A stretch of 64,000 nucleotides of DNA from the human T2T-CHM13v2.0 reference genome, Homo sapiens: positions 43,360,001 through 43,424,000 of the forward strand of contig CP086569.2 in assembly GCA_009914755.4 (NCBI GenBank), in the 5' to 3' direction. The position numbers were made by a program, and so were the translations under genes. The notes beneath the pieces are model-generated. The model saw only the letters and a list, made by a program, of their open reading frames with translations. It made no database searches and was not told the origin of the DNA. This document shows, piece after piece, positions 1,093-5,932 of this stretch. Within the stretch, counting starts at the first letter, position 1, and each line of letters begins with the position of its first letter.

Positions 1093-1390
1093 TTTTTTTT
1101 TAGACAGAGTCTTGTCCTGTTGCACAGGGTGGAGTACAATGCCGCCAACTTTGCTCACTGCAACATCTGCCTCACGGGTCCAAGCGATTGTCCTCCCTCA
1201 GCCTCCCAGGTAGCTGGGACTACACCACACTGGGACTACAGCAGCTGCCACCATGCCTAGCTAATTTTTTGGATTTTTAGTAGTGACAGCGTTTCACTGT
1301 ATTGGCCAGGATGGTCTTGATCTCTTCACCTTGTGATCCCCTTGCCTTGGCCTCCAAATTTGCTGGGATTACAGGCCTGAGCCAAGATCC
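1093..1390 (-). mobile_element. Alu SINE, copy 1, full-length dimeric, old and CpG-decayed. It is a unit-internal component that was amplified together with the array.
   Basis: Poly-T (minus-strand A-tail) at the left edge, then 'agacagagtcttgtcctgttgcacagggtggagtacaatgg...cctcagcctcccaggtagctgggactaca...ttttagtagtgacagcgtttcactgtattggccaggatggtcttgatctc...tgctgggattacaggcctgagcc'. This is the reverse-complement Alu consensus with many CpG to TpG/CpA changes. Confidence 0.93.
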
Positions 1391-3512
1391 ATATTTTTTA
1401 AATGAAAAAAAATTTCAAAGGTACTCTGCTTGGTACAATAATCAAATGTATAAACTGAGGAATAAAACATAACCATGAAACCTACTTATAACTGCATATG
1501 GAAAATACAGAGGATAATTTTTTAAATAACATATTTTGAAAGCCTTAAGTAGTAATTTGAAGAGTTGGCATTAGAAAGGCCAGTATGAATATACCTTCAA
1601 AGCAGCAACACAGGTTCCCCATGAGAAAAAGCAAACTCAGGGAAAATAAAACCACAAAGGTTCAATCTCTTCTGACCTTTGAAAGACACAGCACAGACAG
1701 TGGTCCTTAGGACGAAGAGCAGGAGACCCCTAATTCCGTCACCATGGCGATAGGGCATAAACATTGCTGGGTGAGGGCACAATCCACATTGTGAGGTCCA
1801 ACTGCTGCCAGGAAGACAGGAGTGCTTTTACATATACCGAAACGTCATTGAAGGCTCAGAGTTTTATTTCAAGAACTGAATCCCAAGCCCACACGTTATT
1901 AGGCTGCGCTTCTTAAAACAAGTTATGAGATGGGAAAAAGGGCACCCACAAACATACGTATACATTATGTATATAATAATATACAGTATCATATATATAA
2001 TATATATAACCTATGTATAATATTGTTTTACATCCTGCATCTTCTGTTATATATATTGTATAAAATATAATAATTGATAATATATAAGTTTTATATATAT
2101 ACAATATGACATATAGTATATATTATAATTTATGACATATATAATATATGTTATGTATCATATATAGAATATATTATACGGTTAATATACGTATTAAATA
2201 TAAATTATACATTATATATATTATATATAATATATCTGTTATATATAATACCCATTATGCATAATATATATATTATGTCTATGTTATATATAGTATAAAA
2301 CAACACATAATAATATACAATTGTATATATAAAATGCGACATATAATATATATTATATTTTATGACATATGTAATATATATTATATATTATATATAATAC
2401 GTTGTAGGTATAATTCCTATATTAAATATATATTATAGGACTATGTTATTAATTACATGTCACATATGTTATATATTATATATTTTACATAGAATATACC
2501 GGTTACATACAATATATACTATGTTACCTATAATGTATAATTTATTACATGTAAAATAAAGATTGCAATATACTATGTATAATTTATAGTATACAATATG
2601 TGGATTGTGATATATATAACATATAATATATGATATATGATATACAGTATATGATATATAACATACAATATATGATACCTAATATATATGGTATACAATA
2701 TATATTTTATGATATGTATTCTCTATGTTTTATATTCTGTTATATATAACTATTTGAAATTATATATAACTGTATAATATTTTATGTAAATATGTAATAT
2801 AATATATATAACTATATAATATATTACATATAACTATATATTATGTTATATATAGTTTTATAACATAATTTACATAAAATATCATAATATAATATATATT
2901 ATATTATTTCATATTACATAATATATATTACATATCACCCAATATAAGTAACATACATAATATTATAATATAGATTATATTATGTTATATTAAATATCAT
3001 ATATATCATGTATCATATATTCTATAATATATATTACACATTATATAATATGTATGTTGTCTATTATGTGATATATAGAACTATATATATAATTATATTA
3101 TTATACATATAACTACATAAACATGTAATTCTACATATTTTCATTTATAATATATAGAATTATATAATCATATATAATTATTTATATTCTATAAAAAATT
3201 ATATCATTATATAAATTATAATATATAAAAATTATAATATGTACTACAAACTGATATATTATATATCATATATGATACAGTACCTTTGTTATACATCATA
3301 TAACATATAAATGTGTATTATGTCATCAATAATTATATAATTACATACATAAGATGTATAATATGTATTATATATTATATATGTTATGTAATATATATAG
3401 TATATATAAGCTGACACAGCATAAATATTATATACTATGACATATAAAATATATGAGGTTATATGTTACATATAAGGCATAGCACATAACATGTAATATA
3501 TATCATCTATAA

Positions 3513-3810
3513 TTTTTTTTTAGACAGAGTCTTGTCGTGTTGCACAGGGTGGAATACAATGGCGCCATCTTTGCTCACTGCAACATCTGCCTCACGGGTC
3601 CAAGCGATTGTCCTCCCTCAGCCTCCCAGGTAGCTGGGACTACACCACACTGGGACTACACCAGCTGCCACCATGCCTAGCTAATTTTTTGGATTTTTAG
3701 TAGTGACAGCGTTTCACTGTATTGGCCAGGATGGTCTTGATCTCTTCACCTTGTGATCCCCTTGCCTTGGCCTCCAAATTTGCAGGGATTATAGGCCTGA
3801 GCCAAGATCC
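3513..3810 (-). mobile_element. Alu SINE, copy 2 (same element as copy 1)
   Basis: Same Alu sequence at the unit period, poly-T at the left edge. Confidence 0.92.
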
Positions 3811-4378
3811 ATATTTTTTAAATGAAAAAAAATTTCAAAGGTACTCTGCTTGGTACAATAATCAAATGTATAAACTGAGGAATAAAACATAACCATGAAA
3901 CCTACTTATAACTGCATACGAAAAATGCAGAGGATAATTTTTTAAATAACATATTTTGAAAGCCTTAACTAGTAATTTGAAGAGTTGGCATTTGAAAGGC
4001 CAGGATGAATATACCTTCAAAGCAGCAACACAGGTTCCCCATGAGAAAAAGCAAACTCAGGGAAAATAAAACCACAAAGGTTCAATCTCTTCTGACCTTT
4101 GAAAGACACAGCACAGACAGTGGTCCTTAGGACGAAGAGCAGGAGACCCCTAATTCCGTCACCATGGCGATAGGGCATAAACATTGCTGGGTGAGGGCAC
4201 AATCCACATTGTGACGTCCAACTGCTGCCAGGAAGACAGGAGTGCTTTTACATAGACCGAAAGGACATTGAAGGCTCAGAATTTTGTTTCAAGAACTGAA
4301 TCCCAAGCCCACACGTTATTAGGCTGCGCTTCTTAAAACAAGTTATCAGATGGGAAAAAGGGCACCCACAAACATACG
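3811..4378. other. Representative non-Alu core segment of the unit (~570 bp, ordinary complexity, CpG-poor, no recognisable repeat family). The same segment follows every Alu copy.
   Basis: It begins right after the Alu 5' end ('gccaagatcc|atattttttaaatgaaaaaaaatttcaaagg') and ends at 'gggcacccacaaacatacgta', where the AT-rich segment starts. It contains the recurrent 61 aa minus-strand ORF artefact. Confidence 0.8.
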
Positions 4379-5932
4379 TATACATTATGTATATAATAAT
4401 ATACAGTATCATATATATAATATATATAACCTATGTATAATATTGTTTTACATCCTGCATCTTATCTTATATATATTGTATAAAATATAATAATTGATAA
4501 TATATAAGTTCTATATTTATACAATATGACATATAGTATATATTATAATTTATGTCATATATAATATATGATATATATCATATATAGAATATATTATACG
4601 GTTAATATACGTATTAAATATAAATTATACATTATATATATTATATATAATATATCTCTTATATATAATACCCATTATGCATAATATATATATTATGTCT
4701 ATGTTATATATAGTATAAAACAACACATAATAATATATAATTGTATGTATAAAATGCGACATATAATAGATAATATATTTTATGACATATGTAATATATA
4801 TTATATATTATATATAATACGTTGTATGTATAATACCTATATTAAATATATATTATATGACTATGTTATTAATTACATGTCACATATGTTATATATTATA
4901 TATTTTACATAGAATATACCGGTTACATACAATATATACTATGTTACCTATAATGTACAATTTATTACATGTAAAATAAAGAATGCAATATATTATGTAT
5001 AATTTATAATATACAATATGTGGAATGTGATATATATAACATATAATATATGATATATGATATACAGTATATGATATATAACATACAATATATGATACCT
5101 AATATATATGGTCTACAATATATATTTTATGATATGTATTCTATATGTTTTATATTCTGTTATATATAACTATTTGAAATTATATATAACTGTATAATAT
5201 TTTATGTAAATATGTAATATAATATATATAACTATATAATATATTATATATAACTATATATTATGTTATATATACTTTTATAACATAATTTACTTAAAAT
5301 ATCATAATATAATATATATTATATTATTTCATATTACATAATATATATTACATATCACCCAATATAAGTAACATACATAAGATTATAATATAGATTATAT
5401 TATGTTATATTAAATATCATATATATTATGTATCATATATTCTATAATATATATTATACATTATATAATATGTATGTTGTCTATTATGTGATATATATGA
5501 CTAAATATATAATTATATTATTATACATATAACTAGATAAACATGTAATTCTACATATTTTCATTTATAATATATAGAATTATATAATCATATATAATTA
5601 TTTATATTCTATAAAAAATTATATCATTATATAAATTATAATATATAAAAATTATAATATGTACTACAAATATATATATTATATATCATATATGATATAG
5701 TACCTTTGTTATATATCATATTACATATAAATGTGTATTATGTCATCTATAATTATATAATTTCATACATAAGATGTATAATATGTATTATATATTTTAT
5801 ATGTTATGTAATATATATTGTATATATAAGATGACACAGGATAAATATTATATACTATGACATATAAAATATATGAGGTTATATGTTACATATAAGGCAT
5901 AGCACATAACATGTAATATATATCATATATAA
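4379..5932. repeat. Representative AT-rich low-complexity segment of the unit (~1.55 kb, about 85-90% A+T, dense in TA/AT steps, internally degenerate). It is present in every unit.
   Basis: Composition seen directly ('tatacattatgtatataataatatacagtatcatatatataatatatataacc...'). Loosely repeated sub-motifs ('tatgacatat...', 'ttatatatta') recur within it. It ends at the Alu poly-T. Confidence 0.85.

What the first reader, a model, noticed from the sequence alone, without database searches (positions are those of the whole stretch)
1093..5932. Composite unit: old Alu + ~570 bp complex core + ~1.55 kb TA-rich segment amplified together
Every unit carries the same Alu, which matters in three ways. 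(1) Unit-to-unit differences (about 1-3%) are far smaller than the Alu's distance from the Alu consensus, which is dominated by CpG decay. The Alu therefore inserted long before the array expanded or was homogenised, so the array is evolutionarily young and probably lineage-specific in primates. (2) The Alu A-tail abuts the TA-rich segment directly, as expected for L1-endonuclease-mediated insertion into an AT-rich target. (3) The unit mixes ordinary-complexity DNA (Alu plus core, about 45% GC) with about 1.5 kb of near-simple AT sequence, giving a strong 2.4 kb GC/AT oscillation.
Basis: partly seen in the sequence, partly recalled or inferred. Interest (0 to 1): 0.5.

Follow-up and report, generated by a model that had tools for sequence, protein, structure and literature searches.

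The report
Human Y satellite DYZ2 (HSat1B) array
The whole window is the long-known human satellite DYZ2 (HSat1B), a 2.42 kb repeat with one old Alu per unit that fills much of the Y chromosome's long-arm heterochromatin, so the finding is real but ordinary.

Summary
The window is one tandem array with 26 Alu-bearing units. The modal unit is 2,420 bp: a 292 bp antisense, 5'-truncated Alu, a 574 bp moderate-GC core and about 1.55 kb of 87% A+T sequence. Units differ by 2.0% on average, while the Alu is 17.5% from the AluY/AluS consensus.

This is not a new composite repeat. It is DYZ2, also called HSat1B, first described by Frommer et al. in 1984 and fully characterised in the 2023 T2T-Y and 43-Y-chromosome papers. 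Sequence-level tests agree:
- A published 40-nt Yq-specific probe target, taken from the 1984 sequence, is exact in 22 of 26 units.
- The published ACATACG junction is present.
- Consensus length (2,420 bp), part lengths, GC (24%) and CpG density all match the published values.
- Seventeen "bacterial" contigs, which are human contamination, are 97-99.8% identical to the unit.

The Alu has a single origin and the last homogenisation was recent. However, low unit-to-unit divergence reflects concerted evolution and does not date the array. CpG decay explains under half of the Alu's substitutions, and no clear target-site duplication is left. The window is most likely from Yq12; an acrocentric short arm is not excluded.

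The parts
1..64000 (.). DYZ2/HSat1B tandem array filling the whole window: a partial leading unit (1-1091), 25 complete units, and a partial last unit (62360-64000).
   Evidence: 26 anchors at a 2,414-2,421 bp period. The unit alignment gives mean divergence of 2.0%. GC oscillation spans the window.
1093..1101 (-). Alu A-tail of unit 1, seen as T9 on the + strand, directly preceded by TA-rich sequence.
1102..1384 (-). Alu body of unit 1. It is antisense, 5'-truncated at Alu nt 13, carries a 15 bp internal duplication, and shows 17.5% substitutions from AluY.
   Evidence: alignment and CpG analysis. There is also a subthreshold minus-strand hit to Rfam mir-1268, which from my own knowledge is an Alu-derived family.
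1360..1399 (+). 40-nt target of the published Yq-specific padlock probe, spanning the junction between the Alu 5' end and the core.
   Evidence: The probe arms come from PMC2212658 Table 1. The target is exact in 22 of 26 units and within 2 mismatches in all 26; 0 matches are expected by chance.
1385..1958 (.). 574 bp moderate-GC core (39% GC), which RepeatMasker-based papers call the HSATI portion. It ends with the published junction heptamer ACATACG (1952-1958).
   Evidence: Published values are HSATI 566 +/- 16 bp plus the 7-nt ACATACG.
1959..3512 (.). TA-rich segment of unit 1, about 1.55 kb and 87% A+T. It is not a clean simple repeat: it shows weak period-7 and period-2 signals and a 230 bp x1.9 internal repeat at 76% identity.
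3513..3804 (-). Alu of unit 2: tail at 3513-3521 and body at 3522-3804.
3805..4378 (.). Core (HSATI portion) of unit 2.
4379..5932 (.). TA-rich segment of unit 2.
44608..47840 (.). Variant 3,233 bp unit (U19). It has 813 extra bases of TA-rich sequence at 46125-46937, about 84% identical to neighbouring TA-rich stretches.
   Evidence: The published range of DYZ2 unit length is 1,275-3,719 bp, with the variation lying in the AT-rich part.
25286..44607 (.). Locally homogenised block, U11-U18, with 0.2-1.1% pairwise divergence.
   Evidence: matrix. Units U12-U18 share the CACCT variant at the core/TA junction.

Best explanation
The window is a 64 kb stretch of the human satellite DYZ2 (HSat1B; the male-specific 2.47 kb satellite I unit of Frommer et al. 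1984), most probably from the Yq12 heterochromatin. Each 2,420 bp unit has three parts: an AT-rich segment, one antisense 5'-truncated Alu, and a 574 bp moderate-GC segment that RepeatMasker labels HSATI.

The likely history is as follows. One Alu retrotransposed next to AT-rich DNA. A segment holding the Alu and both its flanks was then duplicated in tandem and amplified. The array has since been kept homogeneous by repeated unequal sister-chromatid exchange and local duplication or deletion. This explains why units are about 98% alike while the Alu they share is 17-20% from its consensus.

The array encodes nothing. It is constitutive heterochromatin, reported to be hypermethylated, with no demonstrated function.

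Shown here: the anatomy, the single origin of the Alu, the sequence identity with published DYZ2 features, and the local blocks and multi-unit duplications. Inferred: the mechanism of amplification, which is taken from the literature and from the block pattern, and the chromosomal location.
For: 1. [quoted passage not shown] Most units are over 98% identical. The window has an Alu at 17.5% substitutions plus an indel, a TA part of 86.6% AT, a core of 39% GC, and mean unit identity of 98%.
2. Hallast et al. give a 2,420 bp consensus, with 93.7% of units exactly 2,420 bp and a range of 1,275-3,719 bp. They report an Alu of 290 +/- 2 bp that is 5'-truncated, HSATI of 566 +/- 16 bp, ACATACG at the HSATI/AT junction, GC of 24% and 1 CpG per 150 bp. 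The window has a 2,420 bp consensus and modal unit, a 292 bp Alu truncated at nt 13, a 574 bp core, ACATACG in 24 of 26 units, GC of 24.25% and 1 CpG per 143 bp.
3. The 40-nt target of a padlock probe designed from the Frommer 1984 sequence labelled only Yq. It is exact in 22 of 26 units and within 2 mismatches in all 26.
4. A 33-mer from the core finds 17 short contigs in unrelated 'bacterial' assemblies. These contigs are 96.8-99.8% identical to the window's consensus unit over their whole length. This is the HSat1B human contamination that the T2T-Y paper reported.
5. An in-silico HaeIII digest gives a main fragment of 2,146 bp. This matches the classical 2.1 kb male HaeIII band, which I recall from my own knowledge and did not verify in a paper here.
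6. 11 of 13 contaminant copies have the window's Alu type. This fits the published split of 14.2 Mb of HSat1B on chrY against 1.2 Mb on the acrocentric chromosomes.
Against: No human reference genome could be searched, so the chromosomal position is not shown. The window contains no DYZ1/HSat3 boundary that would prove Yq12. The Alu consensus sequences used for the divergence figures were written from memory; the 5% match of the L003 left arm to them argues that they are accurate. The original Frommer 1984 paper is not held, so its sequence was tested only through the 40-nt probe derived from it.
Confidence: 0.96

Rival explanations
1. The array is the same satellite family (HSat1B) but lies on an acrocentric short arm (13, 14, 15, 21, 22) or on chr10 rather than on Yq12.
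For: HSat1B also exists on the acrocentric chromosomes (1.2 Mb) and on chr10. The window shows no DYZ1 flank.
Against: About 92% of HSat1B bases are on chrY. The unit length is the Y-derived 2,420 bp consensus. The 40-nt probe that labelled only Yq matches exactly. The window's Alu type is the majority type among independent human-derived copies, 11 of 13. A pure 64 kb block fits the reported Yq12 array sizes of 20-1,200 kb.
Confidence: 0.1
2. It is a previously undescribed, young, lineage-specific composite macrosatellite.
Against: Every quantitative and sequence-level feature matches published DYZ2/HSat1B. The same unit turns up at 97-99.8% identity as a high-copy human contaminant in 17 unrelated assemblies.
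Confidence: 0.01
3. It is an orthologous HSat1B-like array from a non-human ape.
For: The origin of the window is not given. Ape genome annotations include an HSat1B class.
Against: The window's consensus Alu is 100% identical to the copies in two contaminant contigs, and the whole unit is 99.3-99.8% identical to most of them. Such contaminants are expected to be human. All numerical values equal those from human Y assemblies.
Confidence: 0.02

Closest known systems
DYZ2 / HSat1B (male-specific 2.47 kb satellite I unit, Frommer et al. 1984; T2T-Y, Rhie et al. 2023; Hallast et al. 2023)
   Same: Everything tested matches: the 2,420 bp unit, the tripartite order of AT-rich segment, 5'-truncated Alu and HSATI, the part lengths, the Alu divergence, the ACATACG junction, the GC and CpG density, about 98% unit identity, and the exact 40-nt probe target.
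   Different: Nothing at the family level. This stretch has its own local features: one 3,233 bp unit, a nearly identical block at U11-U18, and multi-unit duplications. All of these fall within the published range of variation.
HSat1A (the 42 bp AT-rich classical satellite I)
   Same: It belongs to the same classical AT-rich 'satellite I' fraction and shares the HSat1 name.
   Different: HSat1A has a 42 bp monomer with no Alu, and lies mainly on chromosomes 3, 4 and 13 and the acrocentrics. The window's unit is 2.4 kb and composite. The TA-rich part shows only weak period-7 and period-2 signals, not a 42 bp array.
DYZ1 (Y-specific HSat3, ~3.5 kb unit)
   Same: It is the partner satellite that alternates with DYZ2 in Yq12 and evolves by the same unequal-exchange dynamics.
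   Different: DYZ1 derives from the CATTC/GGAAT pentamer, has 38% GC, and has no Alu as part of its unit. None of it is present in the window.

Membership tests
DYZ2 / HSat1B | Tandem repeat with a unit of about 2.4-2.5 kb (published consensus 2,420 bp) | tested here: met
   The consensus is 2,420 bp. Twelve of the 25 complete units are exactly 2,420 bp, twelve more are 2,414-2,421 bp, and one is 3,233 bp.
DYZ2 / HSat1B | Tripartite unit: AT-rich segment (>85% AT), one 5'-truncated Alu (290 +/- 2 bp), and an HSATI segment (566 +/- 16 bp) | tested here: met
   The TA part is 86.6% AT. The Alu is 292 bp including its tail and is truncated at nt 13. The core is 574 bp.
DYZ2 / HSat1B | Alu about 20% diverged from AluY, with an AluS origin not excluded | tested here: met
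   17.5% substitutions against AluY and 17.2% against AluSx, plus a 15 bp insertion. The consensus sequences were written from memory. No Dfam or RepeatMasker tool was available.
DYZ2 / HSat1B | ACATACG at the junction between HSATI and the AT-rich segment | tested here: met
   Present at the junction in 24 of 26 units; the other two read ACATATG.
DYZ2 / HSat1B | Sequence identity with the original cloned Y repeat (Frommer 1984) | tested here: met
   Tested only through the 40-nt padlock target taken from that sequence, which is exact in 22 of 26 units. The full 1984 sequence could not be obtained.
DYZ2 / HSat1B | GC of about 24% and about 1 CpG per 150 bp | tested here: met
   GC of 24.25% and 1 CpG per 143 bp.
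DYZ2 / HSat1B | Most units over 98% identical to the consensus, with more homogeneous units inside an array | tested here: met
   Mean pairwise divergence is 2.0%. The inner block U11-U18 is at 0.2-1.1%, while the first six units are at 1.9-3.4%.
DYZ2 / HSat1B | Location in Yq12, alternating with DYZ1 arrays | not testable with these tools
   No human reference genome is searchable and no DYZ1 boundary lies in the window. Indirect support comes from the Y-specific probe match and the majority Alu type.
DYZ2 / HSat1B | Classical 2.1 kb HaeIII fragment | tested here: met
   The in-silico digest gives a main fragment of 2,142-2,147 bp in 17 units and 2,004-2,006 bp in 7 units that carry an extra site. 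The 2.1 kb figure is from my own knowledge and was not confirmed in a paper here.

The most novel reading that the evidence does not exclude
Two independent copies of the unit found elsewhere (L003 and L006) share the window's truncation point, 15 bp duplication, right arm and flanks. Their Alu left arm, however, is only 5-7% from the Alu consensus, against 17% in the window type. This suggests that a dispersed young Alu gene-converted part of a satellite-embedded Alu, and that the patched unit then spread in a sub-array, possibly an acrocentric one. If so, HSat1B subfamilies would record ectopic exchange between interspersed repeats and satellite heterochromatin. The window itself holds only the unpatched type.
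Probability: 0.35. Interest if true: 0.25.

Novelty: already known. Interest (0 to 1): 0.07.

Why it matters
It matters little as a discovery. DYZ2/HSat1B has been known since 1984 and was mapped base by base in 2023. The useful outcomes are practical.

The window can be labelled as Y-type HSat1B heterochromatin and set aside.

The case shows that 'units alike, shared Alu old' is the normal signature of concerted evolution in a satellite and is not evidence that the array is young.

The same 2.4 kb unit is a common human contaminant in prokaryotic assemblies, including one piece scaffolded into a 5.2 Mb actinobacterial scaffold.

Tried and rejected
- The Rfam scan of the whole window at gathering thresholds found nothing. 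At the E-value threshold the Alu region gave only a subthreshold mir-1268 hit and no 7SL/SRP hit, so Rfam cannot be used to type the Alu.
- Tandem Repeats Finder cannot see the 2.4 kb period because its longest period is 500. It reported only a 230 bp x1.9 internal repeat in the TA-rich part.
- Megablast of one unit against the plasmid collection gave no match.
- The Frommer 1984 paper (PMC318713) is not held.
- Literature searches for the distribution of HSat1B/DYZ2 in non-human apes gave nothing usable, so the claim of primate lineage specificity could not be assessed.
- I searched for a target-site duplication around the Alu. The only candidate is AAAAAATATGGAT upstream against AAAAAT(TATA)TATGAT after the tail, read in the Alu sense from the flanks printed. 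It is degenerate and lies in low-complexity sequence, so I treat it as inconclusive.
- I considered the idea that the L003/L006 Alu type is ancestral and the window type accumulated 17-20 extra substitutions. I think this less likely for two reasons. The differences are confined to the Alu (20-21 in 283 bp against 1-5 in the 570 bp core). The variant's two arms also have discordant ages (5-7% against 19%), whereas the window type is balanced (17% against 21%).
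Full report
**1. What is in the sequence**

The window is a single tandem array from end to end. Three independent anchors were searched: the end of the Alu tail, the Alu 5' end and the end of the core. Each occurs 26 times with identical spacing of 2,414-2,421 bp, apart from one interval of 3,233 bp.

The finding's coordinates, 1093-5932, are exactly two units in register. 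A MAFFT alignment of all units gives a 2,420 bp majority consensus.

On the + strand each unit reads as follows:
- a T9 run, which is the A-tail of an antisense Alu (1093-1101 in unit 1);
- the Alu body (1102-1384);
- a 574 bp moderate-GC core (1385-1958);
- about 1.55 kb of TA-rich sequence (1959-3512).

GC content is 50%, 39% and 13% for the Alu, core and TA-rich part, and 24.25% for the whole window. The GC profile oscillates with the unit period across all 64 kb.

Pairwise divergence between units averages 2.0%, with a range of 0.04-3.4%. By part it is 2.1% in the Alu, 1.2% in the core and 2.3% in the TA-rich part.

**2. The Alu**

I compared the array's consensus Alu with AluY, AluSx and AluJo consensus sequences written from memory. 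It aligns from Alu nt 13 to the end, so it is 5'-truncated by 12 nt. Substitution divergence is 17.5%, 17.2% and 21.3% respectively. It also carries a 15 bp internal duplication in the right arm.

Of the 47 substitutions against AluY, 17 are C>T or G>A changes at consensus CpG sites and 5 are other changes at CpG positions. Twenty of 23 CpGs are lost. The other 25 substitutions lie at non-CpG positions, which are 11.3% diverged. CpG decay is therefore important but does not dominate.

All 26 copies share the truncation point, the internal duplication and both flanks. This means one insertion was amplified together with its surroundings.

The only Rfam signal is a subthreshold minus-strand hit to mir-1268, which from my own knowledge is an Alu-derived family.

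**3. Identification**

The anatomy matches the human satellite DYZ2, now called HSat1B.

[quoted passage not shown] - a more GC-rich region.

Most of its units are over 98% identical.

[quoted passage not shown] Published and measured values are compared below (published; window).

| Feature | Published (Hallast et al.) | This window |
|---|---|---|
| Consensus unit length | 2,420 bp (93.7% of units exactly this; range 1,275-3,719 bp) | 2,420 bp, also the modal unit |
| Alu length | 290 +/- 2 bp | 292 bp |
| HSATI / core length | 566 +/- 16 bp, plus 7-nt ACATACG | 574 bp |
| ACATACG at the HSATI/AT junction | present | 24 of 26 units |
| GC content | 24% | 24.25% |
| CpG density | 1 per 150 bp | 1 per 143 bp |

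A direct sequence test was also possible. Lohmann et al. (PMC2212658) designed a padlock probe from the sequence of Frommer et al. [quoted passage not shown] Joining its two arms gives the 40-nt target TTGCTGGGATTACAGGCCTGAGCCAAGATCCATATTTTTT, which spans the junction between the Alu 5' end and the core. This target is exact in 22 of 26 units and within two mismatches in all 26, with none expected by chance.

An in-silico HaeIII digest gives a main fragment of 2,146 bp. This agrees with the classical 2.1 kb male HaeIII band, a figure I recall from my own knowledge and could not confirm in a held paper.

**4. Independent copies from elsewhere**

The T2T-Y paper reported that HSat1B is a frequent human contaminant of bacterial reference genomes. 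An invariant 33-mer from the core found 17 contigs in unrelated 'bacterial' assemblies. Most are 0.6-2.5 kb long. They are 96.8-99.8% identical to the window's consensus unit over their whole length. One is a 1 kb piece set between runs of N inside a 5.16 Mb Nostocoides japonicum scaffold.

These copies show that the window's consensus is essentially the family consensus. Eleven of the 13 that include the Alu have the window's Alu type, at 0-1.8% difference. HSat1B totals 14.2 Mb on chrY and 1.2 Mb on the acrocentric chromosomes. Yq12 is therefore the most probable source of the window, though no human reference could be searched to prove it.

**5. How it works**

This is non-coding satellite heterochromatin. 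The best-supported mechanism has four steps:
1. One Alu inserted beside AT-rich DNA.
2. A segment containing the Alu and both flanks became a tandem duplicate.
3. Unequal sister-chromatid exchange expanded the array.
4. The same process keeps homogenising it.

The window shows the expected footprints:
- The block U11-U18 is nearly identical (0.2-1.1%), while the first units are 1.9-3.4% apart.
- There are multi-unit duplications. U21 and U24 differ by less than 0.05% and U22 and U25 by 0.2%. Identity at a lag of 7,260 bp is 99.46%, against 98.86% at a lag of one unit.
- A marker HaeIII site follows a three-unit rhythm through U11-U19.
- One unit has been lengthened by 813 bp inside the TA-rich part.

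The literature reports the same dynamics: iterative duplications, sister-chromatid exchange in Yq12, homogeneous array centres, and length variation confined to the AT-rich segment. The amplification mechanism is inferred, not shown.

**6.

The claims of a single-origin Alu and recent homogenisation are supported. The step from 'units alike, Alu old' to 'array evolutionarily young' is not. Concerted evolution keeps units alike however old the array is, and substitutions fixed across the array add to the Alu's distance from its consensus during the array's lifetime.

The 11% non-CpG divergence is high for an AluY/AluS-type element. This is compatible with long residence in a homogenising, Y-linked array.

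The A-tail does abut the TA-rich segment, which is compatible with L1-endonuclease targeting. The only candidate target-site duplication is degenerate and lies in low-complexity sequence (flanks), so this point is inconclusive.

Lineage specificity could not be assessed, because literature searches on ape HSat1B returned nothing usable.

**7. A side observation**

Two contaminant copies (L003 and L006) share the truncation, the 15 bp duplication, the right arm (19% from AluY) and the flanks. Their left arm, however, is only 5-7% from the consensus, against 17% in the window type. At 17-20 of the roughly 21 differing sites they carry the consensus base. The differences are confined to the Alu, with 20-21 differences there against 1-5 in the 570 bp core.

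The discordant ages of the two arms point to a conversion tract from a younger Alu in a variant sub-family, rather than to an ancestral state. I did not pursue this further.

**8. Verdict**

The object is the already known DYZ2/HSat1B satellite. Interest is low.

Noticed in passing
L003:244-1122 and L006:5897-6920: These are variant HSat1B units with a mosaic Alu. They have the same truncation, 15 bp duplication, right arm and flanks as the window type. Their left arm is only 5-7% from the Alu consensus, against 17% in the window type, and the differences are confined to the Alu. This is probably a gene-conversion tract from a younger Alu, and the variant may be an acrocentric subfamily.
   Followed up: partly
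L001-L017 (e.g. L006:5797-7020, NZ_HF570958.1): Seventeen prokaryotic genome assemblies from unrelated taxa carry this human satellite unit at 97-99.8% identity, which indicates contamination. In Nostocoides japonicum a 1,024 bp piece is scaffolded between runs of N inside a 5.16 Mb scaffold.
   Followed up: partly
window 44608-47840 (extra stretch 46125-46937): One unit is 3,233 bp long. The 813 extra bases lie in the TA-rich part and are only about 84% identical to unit positions 1518-2304 and 904-1516. This is either an old out-of-register duplication or one imported from a divergent unit.
   Followed up: partly
window 25286-47840 and 47841-64000: There are hints of a three-unit (~7.26 kb) higher-order pattern. 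An extra HaeIII site at unit position 77 follows the rhythm -,+,+ through U11-U19. U14 and U17 both lack the site at position 258. U21 and U24 are nearly identical (0.04% apart), as are U22 and U25 (0.2%). Identity at a lag of 7,260 bp exceeds that at 2,420 bp.
   Followed up: partly
window 27702-44607: Units U12-U18 share a C>T variant (CACCTACAA) just before the ACATACG junction. This marks them as one recently expanded block.
   Followed up: no
window 1959-3512 and each later TA-rich segment: The TA-rich part is not a clean simple repeat. Match fractions at lags 7, 2 and 14 are 0.54, 0.52 and 0.49, against 0.38 expected from composition. A 230 bp x1.9 internal repeat at 76% identity recurs in many units. 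The segment is also about 66-68% self-similar on both strands.
   Followed up: no
L016 (Alu region): This contaminant copy carries a 39 bp internal duplication in the Alu that contains an N. It may be an assembly artefact or a real length variant.
   Followed up: no
window 1197-1263 (minus strand): There is a subthreshold Rfam hit to mir-1268 (35 bits against a gathering score of 83), spanning the 15 bp duplicated stretch of the Alu right arm. I read it as reflecting the Alu origin of that miRNA family (from my own knowledge) rather than a miRNA gene.
   Followed up: no
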